From: Trypanosoma brucei
Lineage: Eukaryota
DNA: 64,000 bases
Assembly: GCA_000002445.1 (NCBI GenBank)
Contig: CM000207.1
Coordinates: 1,024,001 to 1,088,000 of the forward strand
Reading direction: 5' to 3'
How positions within the stretch are numbered: position 1 is the stretch's first letter; every line of letters starts with the position of its first letter. The position numbers and the translations under genes are program-made. The notes under the pieces were generated by a model. That model did no database searches and was not told the DNA's origin. It saw only the letters and a list, made by a program, of their open reading frames with translations. Below, in pieces: positions 2,509 through 25,266 of this stretch.

Positions 2509-4689
2509 ATGGGCAGTGATAGTAAATCTAGTAAGTCCAAGGACAAGAACTTCTCATCAAAGGGTAAAATTGAGAAGTATAACAAGGATGGTACCGAAAC
2601 AATTTTGATCATGGGGCGTCCCTTTCGTATTGTGCAGAGGTTAAGTGAGAAGGTGCTTAACCCGGAGGCGAAAAGCTCGAAGAAAAGCAGCAAGAAAGCT
2701 AAGGATGTGTACTCCTACATTGTGGTTGTTGAAAACATTGAAGCTTTACCAATGTTTGCCAGGTATGTCGTTGTGAAGCGTACCTTTTTCAAGATAGACG
2801 AGGTGTTGTTGGCTCATCGGGAGCCTGAGATTTTGAATCGCGTTCGCGATAAGGGAATCCTGCACGTGTTCCACAGTGAAGTAACACGGAATGATGGGCG
2901 TTTGGGAACAACCGTGGCGATGGAGTACTGCCCCGGAAGTTTGGAACAGCGCCTGCAGCAGGAGACTCGGATGTTAGAAAGTGAAGTGGTACAAGTGTTG
3001 CTAGCGCTGGCTAGTGTGTTGGGTTACTTGCACTCTAGGCAGCCCCCGGTTGCACACCGTAACATTAATCCAAGCAATGTGTTAATTCACTCGGAGTCGG
3101 CAGGAGCGAGCGCATACCGCCTCTACAACTTTAGAAGTGCCATGACGGAGGCGTACCACTGCGAGAACCACGAGGAGGTAGTGGCGGCCATGGAAGACTT
3201 TGCCCGCTACACCACGGCAGGGTACCGGGCGCCTGAAATGTTAGACCCAAGTAGTCACAAGCGTATTGATGAACAGGTAGATATGTGGGCTCTTGGTGTG
3301 CTGCTGTACTACACAATGTACCAGCGCCTGCCCTTCACGGATGCATGCTGGGGGCTGGCAAGAAAACCCAAGTTACGCTACCCCGTGGAAGCTGAAGTGT
3401 GGTACACGGGCTCACTACGCATCGTGCTTGAGCATCTTCTTGAACCAGATCCGGAGAAGAGGTGGGATGCGTTTGCTCTCATCAACTTCATGCGTTTCGA
3501 CAATGACCTATGCAGACACATTGGACCCTTCTGCTTCTCGCAGACTGAGCGGCCCGAGGGATGGGAACCGCAGGACGTGAAGGTAATTGGCCGCCCAGTT
3601 CCAGCCAAAGTTCTCCCGGAGAGGTTGCGAAATACTGGCCAGTCCGACGATCCGGCTGCTGCAGCGCGTGACAACAGGGACGAAGCGGCTGCCACCTCCG
3701 TCAAGAGCCGCACAGCGGCACAGGAGTCTGGAGATAATGATCAAATGGTTCTCAAGGCAGTAACTGCGCTGAGTTCAGATACCGCTTCCACAGATCCCGA
3801 GGTGCTAGCCTACCGTGAAAAGCTCATTCGTGAACAGGAGGAGGCATGGCAAGTGGCAGAAAGCGCACACAAAAAGCGGGATAAGGAAGACAAGGATGGG
3901 GCGACCTCTGGACCGGCAGATGTTGATTCATTGTTTGGTCCAACTGAAAAGAAGGAAGCTGTCAAGGAAAACAAGGCATCTGCTATTGACGACTTATTTG
4001 GTGGCATGGAGACACAACCATCACAGTCTCAAAAACCAACAACGGATGACCTCTTTGGAGGCGCCTCTACAGCTACTGCGAGCAACCAAATCCCACCCCA
4101 GGGGTCCCAAGTTGGAGCTAACGACAGTTGGAAGGATGATCTCTTCGCTGCGCCACCTCAGCAACCACAAATGCAACCTCAACCGGCCTTTCCAATGGCA
4201 GCTGACAGTAGTTGGAGCACCGGAGCACCAACATCGGTGCCAATGAATCCAACCGGCGGCATGATGGGTCAACAACAGGCCCCCATGGGATGGGGAAATG
4301 GAGTAACAGCTCCGGGTTTCCAACCAATGCAAACTCCACAAATGCAACAACAAGTTCCTGGTGGATGGGGAAATGGAGCAACAGCTTCGGGTTTCCAACC
4401 AATGCAAACTCCACAAATGCAACAACAAGTTCCTGGTGGATGGGGAAATGGAGCAACAGCTCCGAGTTTCCAACCAATGCAAACTCCACAAATGCAACAA
4501 CAAGTTCCTGGTGGATGGGGAAATGGAGCAACAGCTCCGGGTTTCCAACCAATGCAAACTCCACAAATGCAACAACAAGTTCCTGGTGGTGCCCCCGGTT
4601 TCATGGGCGGAAACGACCTATTCCAAAGGCCACAGCAGCAACAGCCACAGCAACCAGAGAAGGACCCCTTCGCCAGTCTCTTCAAGTAA
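2509..4689 (+). CDS. AAK1/NAK-family (Ark/Prk-like) kinase homologue, predicted catalytically inactive, with a C-terminal DxLF motif region and Q/P-rich 25-aa tandem repeats
   Basis: ATG at 2509. Collinear matches to AAK1: AMEYCPGS (cf. LMEYCRAG), YRAPEM, DMWALGVLLY, LLEPDPEKRWDAF. The catalytic HRD is HRN (3055-3063) and DFG is NFR (3127-3135). Four DxLF motifs lie between 3924 and 4149. Confidence 0.85.
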   Translation: MGSDSKSSKSKDKNFSSKGKIEKYNKDGTETILIMGRPFRIVQRLSEKVLNPEAKSSKKSSKKAKDVYSYIVVVENIEALPMFARYVVVKRTFFKIDEVLLAHREPEILNRVRDKGILHVFHSEVTRNDGRLGTTVAMEYCPGSLEQRLQQETRMLESEVVQVLLALASVLGYLHSRQPPVAHRNINPSNVLIHSESAGASAYRLYNFRSAMTEAYHCENHEEVVAAMEDFARYTTAGYRAPEMLDPSSHKRIDEQVDMWALGVLLYYTMYQRLPFTDACWGLARKPKLRYPVEAEVWYTGSLRIVLEHLLEPDPEKRWDAFALINFMRFDNDLCRHIGPFCFSQTERPEGWEPQDVKVIGRPVPAKVLPERLRNTGQSDDPAAAARDNRDEAAATSVKSRTAAQESGDNDQMVLKAVTALSSDTASTDPEVLAYREKLIREQEEAWQVAESAHKKRDKEDKDGATSGPADVDSLFGPTEKKEAVKENKASAIDDLFGGMETQPSQSQKPTTDDLFGGASTATASNQIPPQGSQVGANDSWKDDLFAAPPQQPQMQPQPAFPMAADSSWSTGAPTSVPMNPTGGMMGQQQAPMGWGNGVTAPGFQPMQTPQMQQQVPGGWGNGATASGFQPMQTPQMQQQVPGGWGNGATAPSFQPMQTPQMQQQVPGGWGNGATAPGFQPMQTPQMQQQVPGGAPGFMGGNDLFQRPQQQQPQQPEKDPFASLFK
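4288..4587. repeat. Four near-identical 75-bp tandem repeats (25-aa unit GWGNGATAPGFQPMQTPQMQQQVPG) plus a partial fifth, inside the kinase-like CDS
   Basis: The W codon TGG recurs at 4291, 4366, 4441 and 4516, a period of exactly 75 nt. Copies differ by 1-2 nt (V/A, P/S substitutions). Confidence 0.95.
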
Positions 4690-17613: not shown

Positions 17614-20600
17614 ATGAAGAGGTGCCGCGCTTACTTTGTCGGGGAGGTTGCGCTCACCGGGGTCGGTGCTTTTCAGGGACGGTGGTGCCAGCCGGCATGC
17701 AAGTCGCAGTTGCAAAGCACGCAGAAACAAGGACGACCCGATGGCCTTACGGTGTCGTTGATGCGCTTATCGGCGTCACAGCGGCGCACGGCCTCCGTAG
17801 CATATGCCCACGGAAATGAAGAGCGACAACTGCTCCCAACGAGTTACAAGAATGTTGCAGCACCGCGCCTCCTGCACGTACTCTTGCTGAAGTGCCGGCA
17901 GAAGACCGCCAAGCCGTCCATTTTGGATGTTGAAGCTGTACCGGAAGTCTCCATGCTAGCAGGTGCGCAGCGAGACGCGGACGAGTCCGGTGGAAAATGG
18001 CATGCGGCTTTCCGGTTGTTCAGTGAAGCGATACAGCGCCGCGGAGTGCTACCCAACATTGCTCACATTAATGTGCTGCTTGGAATTACTGTACGTGAGC
18101 GCCGTTGGCCGCAAAAGGCGGAAGTGGAAAAATTTGTCGAACGGTTCCTTGAAGCCGCGGAGTGCATGGGTGACGAAAGGAAAGAGTATCTGGCGGAGCA
18201 GTTGCAAACGGGTGCTAAAGGCAATGAATGCACTGTGGATGATGTATCCATCCAGCAACTGATTACGGCTATGCGACCGACAGCAGAGACGTACGAATGG
18301 CTCATGGAGGCCGCCGTAAGACAGCGAGACTGGGAAGCGGCACTCACATACTTCGGCGACGCACGTGCTGCGTGCCTACCAATTAGTGACCTCTCACTTC
18401 GTTTGTCCCTTCGCGCCTATCGAATTGCTGGCGTGCACTCAATCTTCAAGACGACCAAAAGAGATCGGCGCGCAGTGCAAATGATGTCACTCCGCACGGA
18501 TCAAAGAGGGCCTGCACTCCGATCCTCGGCGGCGCCGGCGTCACTGCGCGGTGTGGCTAACGCAGTGCGAGTGGAATCGGAGGATGTGCGGTATGTGTGG
18601 CAAGCTGCCCTCTCACTGTTTGAGTCCTACAAGCATCGTGTGCATGAGGGACAGACGATAGGGCTCTTTATGACGATGATGACGGAGGCCGGGCAGTACC
18701 AACAGGTTATTCGTACGCACTCTGAATGTCATCGTACCCTTATTGTCGATGAAGATGTACTCCTTACTGTGAGCAGGGCAGCACGAGAACTTGGTGACTG
18801 GGTTTTGAGCCTGCGTTTGCTCGAGGAAAGCAGTGCAAAAGCTTCAGGGCTGCCGCAATCGATACTGGAAAACACCGTGCATACCTTGCGACGGACCGGA
18901 CACTACAGGGAGATACTGCTACTTCATGCGCAGCTTCCGCCCATATTCTGGTCTGCTGGGGCCTATGTAGTTCTCGCTCAAGCCGCGGTAGTGCAACGGG
19001 AGCTGCCCTTGCTCCTATCGCTTCTTACGGACGAAGAAGACAGATATGAAGACGCACAAATGCCACACGATGTGGATACTGCAGCTCATACATCGTTACA
19101 ACGAAATCTTTCTTTCAACGTTACAACCGCTGCGTCGATGTGTACAGGAAGGCAAAAGCAAACACCGCTGGAAATGTTTGACGTGGCCCTACGGGCCATT
19201 CAGGTTGAGCTCATTCATCGTCGGTGCAAACGTGCTGGCGATTCTAGTACCAGTACAGGTAGCGGAAGCATTGGCACGGGCAGCGGCAACTGCCAAGCAG
19301 GGTCGGTGACGCCACGATACGATTCCGTGGCAAGTCTCGCCTCGCTCTCTGTTGCTATCTACGAAAAGTTCCTGCATGTGTCAACACGTCAACTGAAGAA
19401 GTGGGAGCGCGACAATTGGCCCTCCGGCTCCACATTGACTATCTATGCGCCACTTTTAAAGCTTCTTGCTGTACCGCTCTGTGAAAATCATACCGTTGTT
19501 TCCACTAACAAGAACGTGCGCGGCTCCCCCTGCGCCCCTTGGGAAGTGGCCCTCGCGCATGTGGCATTGATCAGGAGGCCTGACGCTCCGCTAATATGCC
19601 TTGCCGCCCACCTACTGCAGCGGTATCAGCAATGGGAGGCAGCCTTCAAGTTGCTGTCCCACGTGGAGCACAACGACGAGTTGGCTCAGTCTGCCGCTTT
19701 TAAATTACGTTGTGCTCTGCAACTGGGGCCGTCTCGGGCGTCGGCATCAGTGGAGCCATCAAGTTATCGTTGCACGATCATTTCCGCCACCTCCGTCCGT
19801 TATGCCGTGTTAAGCGCCGCCGCCCACCGACCAGCTGCGGCGCTCCATCTCGTACAGTATGCACTGGCACACAGCTGGATCGACAGTGGTATGGCGTTGC
19901 AGCTGCTGCAGCACATACAACGCAATATGAAAGAACCGGTGCAGCGCCGCACTGGCGGCAGACAAGCGACAGCGTCGAATTCCCACATTGGCATGATCGG
20001 CGGTGAAACCGATAGCTACACTCTATCATGTGATGCTATCGTTTTTTTCAAAGAATTTGTTTCTCTTTGGAGCCAGCAGAGTTGTGTGGTGGCCCCACTT
20101 GCACCTCTCTTCAATGAGATATTAATATTCCTGCAGCGTGGACCTCATACGGACCCATCAATATCGTCGTTCACTGCTTTATGTGGTTCAATAGCAAACG
20201 TCCTCCGTCGACTCTCCACCGAATGGAAAGTGGAGCAACACGCTGATGTGGAGCTGGCGCTGGTTGCAGCGGTCCACGCAACTGTGCACCACGTGGGGGC
20301 TTCTACGTTGAGCCGACGAGCTCTCTGGTCGGAGTGTCTGTGTCTCGTTCAGCTCTTCCACAGTCCACTCATTCGTCGAACCTATACCGTAGGAGTACTG
20401 GAGGTAAATGAGGCAACATTTCGTGTGCTCCGTACGTTTATATCAAATTGTAATCGGTCTGAGGAGGCGTTTGTGGAGGGTATCGCGTTTCAGTGGTTGC
20501 TGCCAGGGAAAGTACTGGAACTTCCTCAACTGGAAGAAATTTTTAGGGCACCAGGTGGCCTCACAAGCGCTGCAAATGCTTCGGTGTGGTGGTCGTTGGG

Positions 20601-23600
20601 GTTGTTGCTGTATTCACTCGTATGGGCAAGTCGGCTCCGCTCGAAAGAACTCGTGCGGCACTTTGTTGGAGTGCTGCTACCGCTGCTTCAGCGGCTTTTG
20701 CAGAATGAAGGGAATTGTACTATCATAAGTACTAGTGTTTCCCCAAGCGAAATTAGGTCAGATGGGCTGGCGGCTGCCGTTGTTGCTGTGCAGTGCCTGA
20801 CAAGCGGCGCACACGAAGAGGTGCTACATGACTGGCCCCACGTATATGAGCTGCTTTCAACGCTTCTCCAAGTGCCTGAACTGACTGCAACGGAGAAGGG
20901 AGAAGGGAATGATGTAAGTACCTTAGCAGATGTGTTGGGCGCAGTTCTCGACAAGTTGCGTCGCTCATTTCATTTCCTGATAAGGGGTGTTTCACTCAAT
21001 AAAGGTTACCGCACACACTGTCCGAAAGGTCCTACCACGCCGGCTAGTGACCGTGTAAAGGAACATGGAACCGCGGAAGGAAATAGTTCCGGGGAAGTGG
21101 TAGAAAGGAGTGCGTTTGTTTTTCTGGACATCTGTGAGGAGTTAACAAAGCGCCTCTCAGTTGGAACTAATGGCGAACGGCTTGTGCGAAACGGAATCAC
21201 ATCCTGCTTGGATAAAGTGATGAACTGTATTTGGGATGTCGGCTATGCTTTATTTGTGTGGCGCACACTTTTCAGTGGGTATCCAAATCAAGTAAACGCC
21301 AAGGTGCTGCAGCAGTTGCAAAGTCGGTACCACAGGGCCTTGTACATGCAAATGTTGCACCTTCCTGTACAGCATACAACTCCGTCCATACTGGAACGCT
21401 GGTTGGTTGTGATGAGTGGCTGTGGCCGAAATGGTGGAACGACAAGGACACATGAAGAGTCGCACGAAAATAGGTTGTGTGCTGCAATAATAAATGACAT
21501 TACAACCCTGGACGCATGGGCAAGTTGCCGTTCGTTGCCACACGAACCGGGTGCGCATGGACGCGAGTCTCGGGGAAGGGAACCATTGCTAATTGTTCCG
21601 ATGGTTCTGAGAGTAATAAATTCAATTACGCAAGCTGCGATGAAGCGGTTCTCACAGTGCAAGTTGTCCCACACGAAAACGTGCTCCAAATCATGGAGTG
21701 GTCTTCTGCAACTCGGTGGTGGCCGAGACGTGCATTCTCTTTTTGAAGATCACCTTCTGGTTACCACCATACAGCAACTACAAACCTTGCAGGAGGCGGG
21801 GTCTGCATTGGTATATATGATGCTCTGTGAAGGGAATACAGAAGTGTTGCAAATGGCGCCACAGATTATGTCGTGGTACTTTTGCCCCCGAAACGTTATG
21901 CATGCAGTTGTGCACAGCATGCATTCCGCTTCCCCAGATGTGCTGAAGCCTCTGTGGAAACCAGAGGTTCTCGTGGCTGCTTTTGAAGCACTGGGTGTGC
22001 AGAGTCGAATGCATGCAGCGGAGGGAATCTCTCCACCACGACTTTGCGTGGGGAGTCAGGCATCCCTCCTTTTGTCCTTGTTAACAAGTTCGTCAGTTGT
22101 CCGTGCAGTGGCGCGCATGGATGAAGAGGTCATAATCGCAGCCTTATTGTCACTTGAGGCTGCGGATCTTGAGCGTAGCGATAATGCGCAGCAGACTGCA
22201 CACCAGCTGCTAGTTGCATTTCCAAAGATACTGGAGAGGCAACTGGTACCAATGCTGCTGAGGGGTCATCTTGGGGAGACACAACTGCACGCACTCGATG
22301 TCATCGTGGAACGCACGGCGTCGGAGGTACGTAAGGGATCCGGCACTTGCAGTCCAGCACTCACTCGGGGTGCAGCCATGTGGATGCTGCTGCGCAGACC
22401 TAGCGAAAACCGTGGGGCACGAGCCGACGGATATGACGGTTTGGTGGAGTCCATAACTATGGAGGAAAGAATATTTTGCAATATAATGATTTTTTGTGGA
22501 TCACAGTTTGAGGTTAACAGCTGTCGAGCGGGTGCTGTGCAGACGCAGCAGCGAAAACGAAAGCAACCGGCACCAAGAGAAATGCGTGCTCGTAATCAGT
22601 TTATCCCTTACGCACTTGAGTGGGAGCAAGCGCTCAAGTTACTCACTGATGCCAACAAGGTTGAGCTATCAGATGTTGTGGACGTAAATGGCGCCTTCCT
22701 TGACGTCATAGAAATGTATGGTGCCTGCGTACCGATGGCATGGAAAGTGGGTTTCGCGAAAGAGCTACTGTCACACGAAGCCGGTTGTGACGATCGTCAC
22801 AAAGGCGAAGTCTTACCTAAAGTCCTTGTCCGCGACGTGGCAAGGGAACTCTTACATTGTCGGTCGTTTGCACCGGGTCAACCCGTTGATGACAGGGAGC
22901 TGTATCGAGTTGGTTTGAAGATATGGTCCTCTCTTTCGACGCGGAGAGGGGCTCTTGTACAATCTCCACCAAGTGGTGTATGGAACTTAGTTTGGAGGAT
23001 TCTGAACGAGATGTTGAGAAACCGTTCGCCTGTGCATGGAAGACCTGCCGGACTTGCTGAGGTGAGTGTGCTCCCGTTCAGTCTTTGCGTGGTCGAGCGT
23101 GCGGTTACGCACATATTGCGCTGCGGTGTCCGCTGGTCATTATTGCCGGGAGAGAGGGAAGACATACCGACGGTGGCTGCCTCGCTATTGCTAATGCTGG
23201 AGCTGATAATCCCATGTCGATCCCTCCGTTTGGCGCTATTTGAGTCGGACAACATCACCCATGAAGAGGGCTCTGATGCCCCCGGTTGTGTCGCTGCCAT
23301 CACTTGTGAGGAAAATTCTACAGGGGAACATGCAGTGTGGTCCACCCTTCTCAGTTTTGAAGTGCTACTGTTAACGTTACCTGGGCTCTTAGATGGCAGC
23401 AGCGGAGCTGTCCCGAGCTGCGCCGCCGCCAAGGGCCAAAATGCTCTCGATGTCGTAACAACTCTGCCCAGGATGTTGCTCTACTTCGCGTGCCGCCATG
23501 TTTCGCACTTAACATCCCTCGGAGAGGATTCTGCTCGGGACCGGAGTGGTGCCGCGCAGGAGGAACTTGGCCGTTTGATAGAGCTCTGTGGCTGGCACAT

Positions 23601-25266
23601 CGCTTCTTTTTCCAGTGCTTTGCTAACTGACAGCATTAAAGGGGAGGCCCCATCCACGGGGAAGCGCTTGGTCCTTGAAACCGCCGTCAAGAACTTCGTT
23701 CGCGCGGCGCTACTTATGGGTACATGGCGGGACATCTATTGGTTAGCATTCCGCATACTTGCCTGCGTGAAAACACTATTTGCGCACGGAGGGCGAGCAT
23801 CAAAGCATCCTCAAATGTGGGGCTGGGTTGTTGGGCTGCTGCCGGCGATGGTCGTTGCCTCTGCGCGAACGAGCAGCAGCATTCAAGTCCAGGTTTCCAC
23901 TCTCATAAAGGAAGTCCCATTGGACCTTTTACGTTTGGTTCCCTACGGCGAGGTCCCTACGGTAAATGGGTTGGATAATGAAGAGGAGGTACGAATACGA
24001 CAGGGTGTTCTTTCTGTCCTCCTTAGGCAGGTGGAACAAAGCATTTGGTTGAAAACGGAGGAAGTGCTGCGGGAGCGCGGACGGTCCCTCGCCTTCGCGG
24101 ACCGCCTCTCAGCCGTCAAACCATTGGTTCAACTGGGTATGCATCTCGAGGTGTGGAAGGGCAATGGCGCACGAGCCAGTAGCTTCCTGGAGACGTTGCT
24201 GTTTTTCCTTTCGGAACGCCAATTTAAACTTTTGTGCGAAGCGTCGCGTGTGGAGAACAGAAGCAAAGCCTTGTCGGTGAGGGCGGTTTCTCCGTCTGAG
24301 CGGTTGCCGCAGAAACCAGAGATGACGTGGGAGGAAGCCCTCACACTCTTACTTCGGTCAAACAGAGCAGAATTCTGCAGTTTCTTGCAGAAATCTTCAT
24401 CTAGCAGTAAATCCACAACACCGAAGCTTCACGACGCGCTGTCTATTTTCAAATCTTCTCATATTTCGTGCTGCACACCATGGTGGGCGGCCATCACATT
24501 GTTTTGCAGGTCCGATGGACCACCCCATGTGATTCATGTGTTTCCTGCATTTTTTTCTGAACGAGTGATCGAGCGGTGTCCGTCTTGGAAGACGGCACTA
24601 CGAGCACTGCAGCATTCGTCATCAACAGTACCACACACCACGCGAGTGCAACAATACCTTGTGTACTTGATACTGCGACGATTGCGCACAGATCCCACAT
24701 GGGCGATAGAGGAAAGTTACACATCCGCTCCAACTAAACTATTGGGTGAGCACCTCTCCTGGCAAACCGCCTGCTGGTGCTACGATCAACTGGCACGGAA
24801 GGGTAAAGGAGCTCCGCCAATACAACAGCGGACGATGACTGAGTTGCTTCGCCACTGCGTGCTAAACCCAGAAGCGACACTGTCCATGTACGAGGTGTAC
24901 TGGGCCCAAGGGTACAATCGAGCAGAAGGTGTGAATTCTTTCCTCTCGCTTCTGCGAGCAGGACGCCGCGGCAACAGCGAAAAGTTGGTGCTACGCGCAA
25001 TGCGAGACTACATCAAACAGTGTGACGAGTGGAACGGCGCACAGTGCAACACACAGCGTCGCAAAATAAAGAGCCCTCCATTTACTGCCGAGGGAAACGC
25101 AACGCTGTGCCGTGCCTTCCTTAGTGTATGCTCTGGTGGAATTGTTTCACAGCAAGCCAGGACAGAGGTGGCGGCAGCATTGAAACAGCGAGGATGTATT
25201 GGCGAAGTGGAGGAGCTTCTCATCGTGTCCGGGTGCAGTGAAGGCGCGCGTCCGAGGGACACGTAA
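17614..25266 (+). CDS. Very large (2550 aa) hypothetical helical-repeat protein; the N-terminal third resembles PPR/TPR-like repeats and the N-terminus is Arg/Ser-rich (possible organellar presequence)
   Basis: ATG at 17614, 7.65-kb uninterrupted ORF. Segments such as WHAAFRLFSEAIQRRGVLPNIAHINVLL and ETYEWLMEAAVRQRDWEAALTYFGDA look like 35-aa helical hairpin repeats. All overlapping antisense ORFs are short. Confidence 0.85.
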   Translation: MKRCRAYFVGEVALTGVGAFQGRWCQPACKSQLQSTQKQGRPDGLTVSLMRLSASQRRTASVAYAHGNEERQLLPTSYKNVAAPRLLHVLLLKCRQKTAKPSILDVEAVPEVSMLAGAQRDADESGGKWHAAFRLFSEAIQRRGVLPNIAHINVLLGITVRERRWPQKAEVEKFVERFLEAAECMGDERKEYLAEQLQTGAKGNECTVDDVSIQQLITAMRPTAETYEWLMEAAVRQRDWEAALTYFGDARAACLPISDLSLRLSLRAYRIAGVHSIFKTTKRDRRAVQMMSLRTDQRGPALRSSAAPASLRGVANAVRVESEDVRYVWQAALSLFESYKHRVHEGQTIGLFMTMMTEAGQYQQVIRTHSECHRTLIVDEDVLLTVSRAARELGDWVLSLRLLEESSAKASGLPQSILENTVHTLRRTGHYREILLLHAQLPPIFWSAGAYVVLAQAAVVQRELPLLLSLLTDEEDRYEDAQMPHDVDTAAHTSLQRNLSFNVTTAASMCTGRQKQTPLEMFDVALRAIQVELIHRRCKRAGDSSTSTGSGSIGTGSGNCQAGSVTPRYDSVASLASLSVAIYEKFLHVSTRQLKKWERDNWPSGSTLTIYAPLLKLLAVPLCENHTVVSTNKNVRGSPCAPWEVALAHVALIRRPDAPLICLAAHLLQRYQQWEAAFKLLSHVEHNDELAQSAAFKLRCALQLGPSRASASVEPSSYRCTIISATSVRYAVLSAAAHRPAAALHLVQYALAHSWIDSGMALQLLQHIQRNMKEPVQRRTGGRQATASNSHIGMIGGETDSYTLSCDAIVFFKEFVSLWSQQSCVVAPLAPLFNEILIFLQRGPHTDPSISSFTALCGSIANVLRRLSTEWKVEQHADVELALVAAVHATVHHVGASTLSRRALWSECLCLVQLFHSPLIRRTYTVGVLEVNEATFRVLRTFISNCNRSEEAFVEGIAFQWLLPGKVLELPQLEEIFRAPGGLTSAANASVWWSLGLLLYSLVWASRLRSKELVRHFVGVLLPLLQRLLQNEGNCTIISTSVSPSEIRSDGLAAAVVAVQCLTSGAHEEVLHDWPHVYELLSTLLQVPELTATEKGEGNDVSTLADVLGAVLDKLRRSFHFLIRGVSLNKGYRTHCPKGPTTPASDRVKEHGTAEGNSSGEVVERSAFVFLDICEELTKRLSVGTNGERLVRNGITSCLDKVMNCIWDVGYALFVWRTLFSGYPNQVNAKVLQQLQSRYHRALYMQMLHLPVQHTTPSILERWLVVMSGCGRNGGTTRTHEESHENRLCAAIINDITTLDAWASCRSLPHEPGAHGRESRGREPLLIVPMVLRVINSITQAAMKRFSQCKLSHTKTCSKSWSGLLQLGGGRDVHSLFEDHLLVTTIQQLQTLQEAGSALVYMMLCEGNTEVLQMAPQIMSWYFCPRNVMHAVVHSMHSASPDVLKPLWKPEVLVAAFEALGVQSRMHAAEGISPPRLCVGSQASLLLSLLTSSSVVRAVARMDEEVIIAALLSLEAADLERSDNAQQTAHQLLVAFPKILERQLVPMLLRGHLGETQLHALDVIVERTASEVRKGSGTCSPALTRGAAMWMLLRRPSENRGARADGYDGLVESITMEERIFCNIMIFCGSQFEVNSCRAGAVQTQQRKRKQPAPREMRARNQFIPYALEWEQALKLLTDANKVELSDVVDVNGAFLDVIEMYGACVPMAWKVGFAKELLSHEAGCDDRHKGEVLPKVLVRDVARELLHCRSFAPGQPVDDRELYRVGLKIWSSLSTRRGALVQSPPSGVWNLVWRILNEMLRNRSPVHGRPAGLAEVSVLPFSLCVVERAVTHILRCGVRWSLLPGEREDIPTVAASLLLMLELIIPCRSLRLALFESDNITHEEGSDAPGCVAAITCEENSTGEHAVWSTLLSFEVLLLTLPGLLDGSSGAVPSCAAAKGQNALDVVTTLPRMLLYFACRHVSHLTSLGEDSARDRSGAAQEELGRLIELCGWHIASFSSALLTDSIKGEAPSTGKRLVLETAVKNFVRAALLMGTWRDIYWLAFRILACVKTLFAHGGRASKHPQMWGWVVGLLPAMVVASARTSSSIQVQVSTLIKEVPLDLLRLVPYGEVPTVNGLDNEEEVRIRQGVLSVLLRQVEQSIWLKTEEVLRERGRSLAFADRLSAVKPLVQLGMHLEVWKGNGARASSFLETLLFFLSERQFKLLCEASRVENRSKALSVRAVSPSERLPQKPEMTWEEALTLLLRSNRAEFCSFLQKSSSSSKSTTPKLHDALSIFKSSHISCCTPWWAAITLFCRSDGPPHVIHVFPAFFSERVIERCPSWKTALRALQHSSSTVPHTTRVQQYLVYLILRRLRTDPTWAIEESYTSAPTKLLGEHLSWQTACWCYDQLARKGKGAPPIQQRTMTELLRHCVLNPEATLSMYEVYWAQGYNRAEGVNSFLSLLRAGRRGNSEKLVLRAMRDYIKQCDEWNGAQCNTQRRKIKSPPFTAEGNATLCRAFLSVCSGGIVSQQARTEVAAALKQRGCIGEVEELLIVSGCSEGARPRDT

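What the first reader, a model, noticed from the sequence alone, without database searches (positions are those of the whole stretch)
3924..4149. Cluster of four DxLF motifs in the kinase-like C-terminal region (candidate clathrin/adaptor-appendage binding motifs)
DSLFG, DDLFGG, DDLFGG and DDLFAAP occur at about 19-30-residue spacing in a disordered S/T/Q-rich region. Acidic-x-L-F motifs (DLL/DLF/DxF type) are the short linear motifs that endocytic accessory proteins, including AAK1/GAK-family members, use to bind clathrin terminal domain or adaptin appendages. Together with the pseudokinase call this points to an endocytic scaffold.
Basis: partly seen in the sequence, partly recalled or inferred. 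Interest (0 to 1): 0.5.

Follow-up and report, generated by a model that had tools for sequence, protein, structure and literature searches.

The report
Clathrin-type DLF motifs in TbAAK1L1 tail
The four Asp-x-Leu-Phe motifs are real, non-random and conserved, but they lie in the disordered tail of a published Trypanosoma brucei protein (TbAAKL/TbAAK1L1, Tb927.9.6560), an inactive kinase already shown to associate with clathrin at the flagellar pocket, so the finding is correct but largely known.

Summary
Observation confirmed. The ORF at 2509-4689 (+, 726 aa) carries DSLF, DDLF, DDLF and DDLF at aa 473, 494, 513 and 543 (nt 3925-4146). In aa 460-560 every Leu and every Phe sits in a motif, and 0 of 20,000 shuffles reach four. 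The copies are not recent DNA duplicates. The region is predicted disordered.

The protein is 100% identical to T. brucei TREU927 XP_827022. I identify it, by inference, as the single NAK-family member Tb927.9.6560 (TbAAKL/TbAAK1L1). Published work shows an HRN/NFR pseudokinase that co-purifies with clathrin heavy chain, sits at the flagellar pocket, gives uptake defects when deleted, and has "short linear clathrin-binding motifs" in its disordered tail.

New here: DLF and DPF are the only tripeptides found in the tails of all 21 kinetoplastid orthologues. Two of the four sites are ancestral. The other two are seen only in the two salivarian species sampled (one shared with T. congolense, one T. 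brucei-only). Those two species have no FxDxF.

Best explanation: an AP180-like array of weak, multivalent clathrin terminal-domain ligands, possibly also binding AP-1 ears. Direct binding remains untested. Interpretation supported; novelty low.

The parts
2509..4689 (+). Whole gene: TbAAK1L1/TbAAKL (Tb927.9.6560), 726 aa, read from the upstream ATG
   Evidence: ORF list. Residues 35-726 are 100% identical to T. brucei TREU927 XP_827022. The 34-aa N-terminal extension is conserved in orthologues and is used in the T. b. equiperdum model.
2566..3513 (+). Kinase-like (NAK-family) domain, about aa 20-335
   Evidence: Pfam Pkinase, E 4.4e-23. Best solved relatives are AAK1 (1.6e-24), BIKE and GAK. 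AF2 predicts a kinase fold with pLDDT mostly 65-91.
3055..3063 (+). HRN in place of the catalytic HRD (aa 183-185)
   Evidence: Aligned with HRD of human AAK1. Same substitution reported in PMC5399782 and PMC10952953.
3127..3135 (+). NFR in place of DFG (aa 207-209)
   Evidence: Aligned with DFG of AAK1. N207 is nearly invariant and F208 invariant in orthologues.
3796..3894 (+). Conserved helix (aa 430-462) just upstream of the motif cluster
   Evidence: AF2 helix with pLDDT 82-88. Consensus DPEMxxYRxxIIxEQEEAW is conserved.
3925..3936 (+). Motif 1, DSLF (aa 473-476). T. brucei-specific; T. congolense has LSLLG here.
3988..3999 (+). Motif 2, DDLF (aa 494-497), followed by GG. One of motifs 2 and 3 is the ancestral 'site A'.
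   Evidence: LF invariant in alignment A1. Orthologues have D-Phi-F-[DE]-D-L-F here.
4045..4056 (+). Motif 3, DDLF (aa 513-516), followed by GG. Shared with T. congolense.
   Evidence: In alignment A2 this copy, not motif 2, aligns with site A.
4135..4146 (+). Motif 4, DDLF (aa 543-546), preceded by W541. Ancestral 'site B'.
   Evidence: F546 invariant and L545 nearly invariant in 21 orthologues. The only local pLDDT rise, a short helical turn at 541-544.
4207..4230 (+). Conserved SSWSTGAP (aa 567-574)
   Evidence: W, G and P invariant in alignment A1.
4288..4589 (+). 75-bp x 4 tandem repeat encoding GWGNGATAPGFQPMQTPQMQQQVPG
   Evidence: TRF, 97% matches. Copy number differs among T. brucei subspecies.
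4612..4623 (+). Motif 5, NDLF (aa 702-705). Seen in T. brucei (all three subspecies) but not in T. congolense.
4663..4683 (+). C-terminal DPFASLF (aa 719-725), ancestral 'site C'
   Evidence: D719, P720, F721 and L724 invariant; F725 nearly invariant. DPF conservation also noted in PMC10952953.

Best explanation
The four DxLF motifs, together with a fifth NDLF and the C-terminal DPFASLF, are short linear motifs of the DLL/DLF class. They lie in the intrinsically disordered tail of TbAAK1L1, the T. brucei AAK1-like pseudokinase.

Proposed mechanism: each motif binds the N-terminal beta-propeller of clathrin heavy chain weakly. By analogy with AP180, the Kd would be about 0.1-1 mM. Several motifs spaced about 20-30 residues apart would give avidity. 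This would concentrate the catalytically dead kinase on assembling clathrin lattices at the flagellar pocket, and could let it bridge triskelia.

Shown here: the motifs exist, are far beyond chance, lie in predicted disorder, and are under purifying selection across kinetoplastids. Shown in the literature: the whole protein co-purifies and colocalises with clathrin, and its loss perturbs uptake. Inferred: the motifs are the contact, and the contact with clathrin is direct.
For: 1. Enrichment: 0 of 20,000 shuffles reach four motifs. Background is 1 D.LF in 8,255 aa of neighbouring ORFs.
2. Not a DNA repeat, so each copy is maintained at the protein level.
3. DLF and DPF are the only tripeptides present in the tails of all 21 orthologues (expected 0.54 and 1.89). 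The LF of sites A, B and C is invariant or nearly so in alignments whose mean column identity is 38-42%.
4. All five DLF-type motifs and DPFASLF are unchanged in T. b. gambiense and T. b. equiperdum, while nearby residues and the repeat number vary.
5. Disorder: pLDDT <50 for aa 464-540 and 547-715.
6. The protein has no canonical clathrin box, W-box, arrestin box, NPF or FxDxF. The published 'clathrin-binding motifs' of Tb927.9.6560 (PMC5399782) can therefore hardly be anything other than these.
7. Close formal match to AP180, which has 12 repeats of about 23 aa, each with one DLL/DLF, binding the clathrin terminal domain with Kd about 2e-4 M (PMC5694535). Gly or Ala is preferred after the L/F (PMC11246429). 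Here F is followed by G, G, G, A; across orthologues it is S, A or G in 44 of 67 motifs.
8. Human AAK1 also carries DLL, DPF and NPF motifs in its tail, plus a Q/P/A-rich middle region (PMC2173317).
9. More distant NAK-like proteins with intact HRD and DFG also end in LDDLF-type and DPF/LF motifs.
Against: No experiment has mapped the clathrin contact to these motifs. The co-isolation with clathrin also recovered AP-1, EpsinR and others, so the association could be indirect (PMC5399782).

DLL/DLF motifs are promiscuous and bind AP-2 alpha and beta2 appendages about as well as they bind clathrin (PMC11246429). Mutating one or two such motifs in AP180 has no measurable effect on clathrin binding (PMC5004861), so individual motifs may be dispensable.

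RNAi of TbAAKL gave no endocytic phenotype in one study (PMC5399782). I could not check whether the T. brucei clathrin terminal domain keeps the relevant grooves.
Confidence: 0.62

Rival explanations
1. The motifs bind adaptor appendages rather than clathrin. In T. brucei that would be the AP-1 gamma or beta1 ears. The protein would reach clathrin coats indirectly through AP-1.
For: All AP-1 subunits were recovered in the same clathrin isolations (PMC5399782). DLL/DLF motifs bind AP-2 alpha and beta2 ears with affinities similar to clathrin (PMC11246429), and beta1 is the paralogue of beta2 (own knowledge). One site, FGGM at aa 497, fits the gamma-ear/GAE pattern aromatic-G-x-[aromatic/L/M].
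Against: Only 1 of 5 sites fits a gamma-ear pattern. The residues after F are not conserved as G-x-hydrophobic in orthologues, where DLFA, DLFS and DLFD occur. The protein colocalises preferentially with clathrin puncta next to the flagellar pocket rather than with the whole Golgi/endosomal clathrin pool (PMC5399782). AP-1 is expected to act at the TGN and endosomes (PMC4977521).
Confidence: 0.17
2. The motifs are relics of ancestral AP-2 appendage ligands (DxF, FxDxF, DPF). They have lost their partner in salivarian trypanosomes and persist without function.
For: In most AP-2-bearing kinetoplastids the sites are doublets such as DLFDDLF, DVFDDLF and DPFADLF. These contain FxDxF and resemble AP180's DLFGDAF, which is part of its AP-2 beta2 site (PMC11246429). 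T. brucei and T. congolense have 0 FxDxF, against 1-2 in 18 of the other 19 orthologues.
Against: The DLF cores are retained in both salivarian species. They are identical across T. brucei subspecies despite nearby substitutions. They use different codons in each copy. T. brucei and T. congolense also carry extra copies that other trypanosomes lack. Published dN/dS analysis finds mainly negative selection in salivarian AAK1L1 (PMC10952953). A functionless motif would be expected to decay rather than multiply.
Confidence: 0.06
3. The acidic-LF sites, together with the GWG/GF repeats and the Q/P-rich sequence, act as generic aromatic 'stickers'. They would drive self-association or condensate formation of the tail, or act as LFG nucleoporin-like cohesive repeats, rather than as specific ligands.
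For: Three sites read LFG. The tail is Q/P-rich with repeated GWG...GF units. The tagged protein forms granules at the posterior pole or flagellar tip on starvation (PMC4652759).
Against: The Gly after F is not conserved, whereas the preceding acidic residue and the LF are. The DLF signature is exactly that of endocytic motifs, in a protein with a documented clathrin association.
Confidence: 0.1
4. Chance clustering, or an artefact of low-complexity or repeated sequence.
For: None beyond the general abundance of short motifs in disordered sequence.
Against: 0 of 20,000 shuffles reach the observed count. The copies are not DNA repeats. The motifs are positionally conserved across kinetoplastids.
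Confidence: 0.01

Closest known systems
AP180/CALM clathrin-assembly domain (DLL/DLF motif array)
   Same: Several D-L-[LF] motifs in a long disordered tail, one per roughly 20-30 residues, with a small residue (G or A) after the motif. In AP180 each binds the clathrin terminal domain weakly and independently (PMC5694535, PMC11246429).
   Different: Here the folded domain is a dead kinase rather than a lipid-binding ANTH domain. There are 5-6 motifs instead of about 12. No binding or assembly assay has been done. There is no sequence homology between the tails.
Human AAK1, and the NAK family (BIKE, GAK, Drosophila Nak, yeast Ark1/Prk1)
   Same: Homologous kinase domain; AAK1, BIKE and GAK are the best solved relatives. 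A Q/P-rich disordered tail carries DLL-type and DPF motifs (PMC2173317). Associated with clathrin coats.
   Different: The catalytic Asp of HRD and the Asp of DFG are both replaced (HRN, NFR). The canonical substrate and partner AP-2 is absent from T. brucei (PMC10952953). No NPF or WxxF motif. More DLF copies than the single DLL described in human AAK1.
T. brucei clathrin-associated proteins with disordered tails (TbEpsinR, TbCALM, TbCAP80, TbCAP141, TbSMAP)
   Same: Same published architecture: a folded N-terminal domain plus a disordered C-terminus with predicted clathrin-binding motifs, recovered in the same clathrin isolations (PMC5399782, PMC4450294).
   Different: Those proteins carry membrane-binding or ArfGAP domains and are essential for endocytosis. 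TbAAK1L1 is dispensable in culture and has a milder phenotype.
SCYL2/CVAK104 (own knowledge, not tested here)
   Same: A kinase-like protein of coated vesicles that binds clathrin and adaptors. It is a precedent for a catalytically weak or dead kinase fold acting as a coat-associated scaffold.
   Different: Different kinase-like family (SCY1-like) with HEAT repeats. No homology was detected here.

Membership tests
NAK (Numb-associated / AAK1-BIKE-GAK-Ark/Prk) kinase family | Kinase-domain homology closest to NAK members | tested here: met
   phmmer against PDB gives AAK1 1.6e-24, BIKE 1.5e-21 and GAK 1.7e-15 as the top hits. Fungal Ark and 'NAK/BIKE' kinases are the first non-kinetoplastid hits. 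Phylogeny in PMC10952953 places it in NAK.
NAK (Numb-associated / AAK1-BIKE-GAK-Ark/Prk) kinase family | Intact catalytic motifs (HRD Asp, DFG Asp), meaning an active kinase | tested here: not met
   HRN at aa 183-185 and NFR at aa 207-209, aligned to HRD and DFG of AAK1. The beta3 Lys (K90) and alphaC Glu (E105) are retained. It is therefore a member by descent but a predicted pseudokinase, as published.
NAK (Numb-associated / AAK1-BIKE-GAK-Ark/Prk) kinase family | Disordered C-terminal tail with endocytic short linear motifs | tested here: met
   pLDDT <50 for aa 464-540 and 547-715. DLF x4, SLF x2 and DPF x1.
NAK (Numb-associated / AAK1-BIKE-GAK-Ark/Prk) kinase family | Binds and phosphorylates the AP-2 mu2 subunit | not testable with these tools
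   AP-2 is reported absent from salivarian trypanosomes (PMC10952953, PMC5399782).
DLL/DLF-type clathrin terminal-domain ligands (AP180-like array) | Core sequence D-[LI]-[LF] | tested here: met
   DLF at aa 495, 514, 544 and 703. Motif 1 and the C-terminus read SLF instead.
DLL/DLF-type clathrin terminal-domain ligands (AP180-like array) | Located in an intrinsically disordered region, in several copies | tested here: met
   AF2 disorder. Spacings of 21, 19 and 30 residues, compared with about 23-residue repeats in AP180 (PMC5694535).
DLL/DLF-type clathrin terminal-domain ligands (AP180-like array) | Conserved in orthologues against a diverging background | tested here: met
   DLF occurs in 21 of 21 orthologue tails, against 0.54 expected. 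Invariant LF columns.
DLL/DLF-type clathrin terminal-domain ligands (AP180-like array) | [quoted passage not shown] | not testable with these tools
   Only whole-protein co-isolation and colocalisation with clathrin are published (PMC5399782). The structure tool does not accept complexes or the T. brucei clathrin sequence.
Canonical clathrin-box, W-box or arrestin-box ligands | L-Phi-x-Phi-[DE], PWxxW or [LI][LI]GxL | tested here: not met
   No match anywhere in the protein.
AP-2 alpha/beta2 appendage ligands (DP[FW], FxDxF, WxxF, [DE]xxFxx[FL]xxxR) | Presence of the motif | tested here: inconclusive
   There is one DPF (aa 719). There is no FxDxF, no WxxF in the tail and no beta2-type motif. 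FxDxF is present in 18 of the 19 non-salivarian orthologues. The partner is absent in T. brucei.
AP-1 gamma-ear / GGA GAE ligands | Acidic stretch followed by [FW]-G-x-[FWLM] | tested here: not met
   Only FGGM at aa 497 fits, and the pattern is not conserved in orthologues.

The most novel reading that the evidence does not exclude
After the loss of AP-2, salivarian trypanosomes rewired the tail of their only NAK-family protein. The ancestral doublets, which contain the AP-2-type FxDxF (DLFDDLF, DPFADLF), were reduced to single DLF or SLF sites. Extra DLF copies and GWG-containing tandem repeats were added. On this reading a former AP-2 kinase became a catalytically dead, AP180-like multivalent clathrin scaffold, and the DLF array is its functional core.
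Probability: 0.18. Interest if true: 0.45.

Novelty: already known. Interest (0 to 1): 0.2.

Why it matters
T. brucei has exceptionally fast clathrin-mediated endocytosis without AP-2. Why it keeps an "AP-2-associated" kinase that is also catalytically dead is an open, though niche, question (PMC10952953). A conserved DLF array is the simplest candidate for what the protein still does, namely binding clathrin multivalently.

The site map given here (two ancestral sites, extra copies in the two salivarian species sampled, a C-terminal DPF-x-[DS]LF) tells an experimenter which residues to mutate. The protein, its clathrin association and the existence of predicted clathrin-binding motifs are already published, so this refines known biology rather than revealing something new.

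Tried and rejected
- Chance or composition: rejected by shuffles and by the background in neighbouring ORFs.
- Recent tandem duplication as the source of the motif copies: rejected, with 22-48% nucleotide identity and different Leu codons. The true 75-bp repeat lies further downstream.
- Other motif classes: canonical clathrin box, W-box, arrestin box, NPF, WxxF, beta2-appendage motif, LIR and acidic dileucine have no relevant match in the tail.
- Gamma-ear/GAE motif: one weak match, not conserved.
- FG-nucleoporin-like LFG repeats: the Gly is not conserved.
- T. vivax orthologue, wanted to test the salivarian pattern: not recovered in either protein search. The published table shows only a 293-aa fragment on an unplaced contig.
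- T. brucei 'expansion' of motifs: weaker than it first looked. Counting all D-Phi-F anchors gives 5 in T. brucei, 3 in T. congolense, 3-4 in most other trypanosomes, about 6 in most Leishmania-group sequences and 5-7 in the most divergent orthologues. The difference is mainly dispersed singlets versus doublets.
- Exact sequence of the 'trypanosome clathrin-binding motif' of TbEpsinR (Gabernet-Castello 2009): the paper is not held. Neither Manna 2017 nor Black 2023, nor the held supplement, names DLF or DLL.
- Complex prediction with clathrin: not possible with the tool restrictions.
Full report
**What is there.** The finding lies in a 726-codon ORF on the + strand, nt 2509-4689.
- VDSLFGP, D at aa 473, nt 3925
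- IDDLFGG, aa 494, nt 3988
- TDDLFGG, aa 513, nt 4045
- KDDLFAAP, aa 543, nt 4135

Spacings are 21, 19 and 30 residues.

**Is it more than chance?**
- In aa 460-560 there are only four Leu and four Phe, and all eight are in the motifs.
- Shuffling the whole protein, the tail or the 101-residue region gives on average 0.02-0.09 D.LF. None of 20,000 shuffles reached four.
- The 14 other large + strand ORFs of the window (8,255 aa) contain one D.LF and no DLF.
- The copies are not a DNA repeat. 60-nt segments around them are 22-48% identical, and the Leu codons are TTG, TTA, CTC, CTC and CTA.
- A genuine repeat does lie downstream: a 97%-identical 75-bp x4 tandem repeat at 4288-4589.
- The motif region is rich in A/P/Q/G/S/T and only 16% hydrophobic.
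- An AlphaFold2 model built on 21 orthologues gives a kinase fold for about aa 20-335 and a confident helix at aa 430-462. pLDDT is below 50 for aa 464-540 and 547-715. The only local rise is a short turn at W541-D544, next to motif 4.

**What the protein is.**
- Pfam finds a protein-kinase domain.
- The closest solved structures are human AAK1 (1.6e-24), BIKE and GAK, which make up the NAK family. In that alignment HRD is HRN and DFG is NFR.
- Residues 35-726 are 100% identical to T. brucei brucei TREU927 XP_827022.
- T. brucei has a single NAK homologue, Tb927.9.6560 (PMC10952953). I therefore identify the window gene as that one, published as TbAAKL (PMC5399782) and TbAAK1L1 (PMC10952953). 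This identification is an inference from those facts.

**What is already published.** Manna et al. 2017 recovered the protein in cryomilled clathrin-heavy-chain isolations and saw it on clathrin puncta next to the flagellar pocket. [quoted passage not shown] RNAi gave no phenotype in that study. Black et al. 2023 showed the HRN and D-to-N changes, a disordered tail and a conserved C-terminal DPF. Null mutants grew slowly, had swollen flagellar pockets and showed altered lectin uptake.

Neither text, nor the supplement held, names DLF or DLL. The protein has no canonical clathrin box, W-box, arrestin box, NPF or FxDxF.

I collected 20 kinetoplastid orthologues: T. congolense, T. cruzi, T. rangeli, T. 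theileri, T. melophagium, Leishmania, Porcisia and unnamed assemblies.
- DLF and DPF are the only tripeptides present in the tail of all 21 sequences. Expected numbers are 0.54 and 1.89.
- Alignments have 38-42% mean column identity. Beyond the kinase-like region, the invariant or nearly invariant tail columns include the LF of one of motifs 2 and 3, (L)F545-546, the W/G/P of SSWSTGAP, and KDPF..LF at the C-terminus.

Three sites are therefore ancestral:
- Site A, usually D-Phi-F-[DE]-D-L-F. It corresponds to T. brucei motif 2 or 3; the two alignments disagree on which.
- Site B, W-x-[DN]-[ST]-L-F in trypanosomes and D-Phi-F-S-A-D-D-L-F elsewhere. It corresponds to motif 4.
- Site C, KKDPF-x-[DE]-L-F.

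The other copy of the motif 2/3 pair is shared only with T. congolense. Motif 1 (T. congolense has LSLLG there) and motif 5 are T. brucei-specific. All of them are unchanged in T. b. gambiense and T. b. equiperdum, although nearby residues and the repeat number differ. More distant NAK-like proteins with intact HRD and DFG also carry LDDLF-type and C-terminal DPF/LF motifs.

**How it most likely works.** The closest functional analogue is the clathrin-assembly domain of AP180.
- AP180 has 12 repeats of about 23 residues, each with one DLL/DLF. Each binds the clathrin terminal domain independently, with Kd around 0.2 mM (PMC5694535).
- A slight preference for Gly or Ala after the motif is reported (PMC11246429). 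Here F is followed by G, G, G, A. Across orthologues it is S, A or G in 44 of 67 motifs.
- Human AAK1 itself has DLL, DPF and NPF motifs in its tail and a Q/P/A-rich middle region (PMC2173317).

I therefore propose that the tail is a multivalent, low-affinity clathrin ligand. It would hold the dead kinase on assembling coats at the flagellar pocket. The existence, non-randomness, disorder and conservation of the motifs are shown here. The clathrin association of the protein is published. That the motifs make the contact, and that the contact is direct, is inferred.

**Rivals.**
- DLL/DLF motifs also bind AP-2 ears promiscuously (PMC11246429), and AP-1 was in the same isolations (PMC5399782). 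AP-1 ears are thus a real alternative partner. However, the gamma-ear pattern fits only one site and is not conserved, and the protein is biased to pocket-proximal clathrin.
- A vestigial AP-2 ligand is unlikely. The cores are kept, and extra copies have appeared, in a lineage that lost AP-2.
- A generic 'sticker' or condensate role cannot be excluded. It fits the starvation granules seen by Fritz et al. (PMC4652759). It does not explain why the acidic-LF signature specifically is conserved.

**A lineage pattern worth recording.** In most AP-2-bearing kinetoplastids, sites A and C are doublets such as DLFDDLF, DVFDDLF and DPFADLF. These contain FxDxF and resemble AP180's DLFGDAF, which is part of its strong AP-2 beta2 site (PMC11246429). 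T. brucei and T. congolense have no FxDxF: site A reads AIDDLF and site C reads DPF[AS]SLF. Eighteen of the other 19 orthologues have one or two.

This fits relaxation of AP-2 binding with retention of clathrin binding. It rests on one evolutionary event, however. One unnamed non-salivarian sequence (P0016) also lacks FxDxF, the most divergent orthologues (presumed bodonid-like) have L rather than F at site A, and T. vivax could not be obtained. The apparent T. brucei 'expansion' is modest when all D-Phi-F anchors are counted.

**Verdict.** It concerns a characterised protein whose clathrin association, pocket localisation, pseudokinase status and possession of predicted clathrin-binding motifs are in the literature. 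The added value is the statistical check, the site-by-site conservation map and the FxDxF observation. Interest is low (0.2) and novelty is 'already known'.

Noticed in passing
window 2509-2610: The GenBank models for T. b. brucei TREU927 and T. b. gambiense start at Met35 (nt 2611), but the ORF begins at ATG 2509. The extra 34 residues (MGSDSKSSKSKDKNFSSKGKIEKYNKDGTETILI) are conserved in orthologues, are included in the T. b. equiperdum model and form predicted beta-strands. The upstream start is probably the real one.
   Followed up: partly
window 4288-4589: A 75-bp x4 tandem repeat (97% identical) encodes GWGNGATAPGFQPMQTPQMQQQVPG. Copy number varies between T. brucei subspecies; gambiense has two fewer. 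T. congolense has a different 21-aa repeat with the same GGWG...GF core. The function of these Trp-Gly units is unknown.
   Followed up: partly
window 4207-4230: A single-copy motif SSWSTGAP (consensus [DG]-x-W-G-[ST]-G-A-P) has invariant W, G and P across the aligned kinetoplastid orthologues, in otherwise divergent disordered sequence. It matches no endocytic motif I know.
   Followed up: no
window 3796-3894: A conserved helix lies between the kinase-like domain and the motif cluster (aa 430-462, DPEVLAYREKLIREQEEAWQVAES...; pLDDT 82-88). Role unknown; it might be a dimerisation or docking element.
   Followed up: no
orthologues P0002-P0026, sites aligned to window 3988-3999 and 4663-4683: FxDxF-containing doublets (DLFDDLF, DVFDDLF, DPFADLF) occur in 18 of 19 non-salivarian orthologues but not in T. 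brucei or T. congolense, which lack AP-2. The Asp of site C is Ser only in these two species.
   Followed up: partly
proteins P0027-P0033: Shorter NAK-like proteins (450-530 aa) of unidentified origin have intact HRD and DFG. They share the LDDLF-type and C-terminal DPF/LF tail motifs, which suggests the motif set predates the pseudokinase state. They do not have the HWD/PPE features published for kinetoplastid AAK1L2.
   Followed up: no
window 9614-63186: The rest of the window is a single + strand run of unrelated ORFs typical of a trypanosome polycistron. These include an AlaX-like tRNA-editing domain protein, an FAD oxidoreductase, a lysine methyltransferase, a cyclic-nucleotide phosphodiesterase and a topoisomerase C-terminal domain protein. 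There is also a 2,550-aa ORF (17614-25266) with no Pfam match.
   Followed up: no
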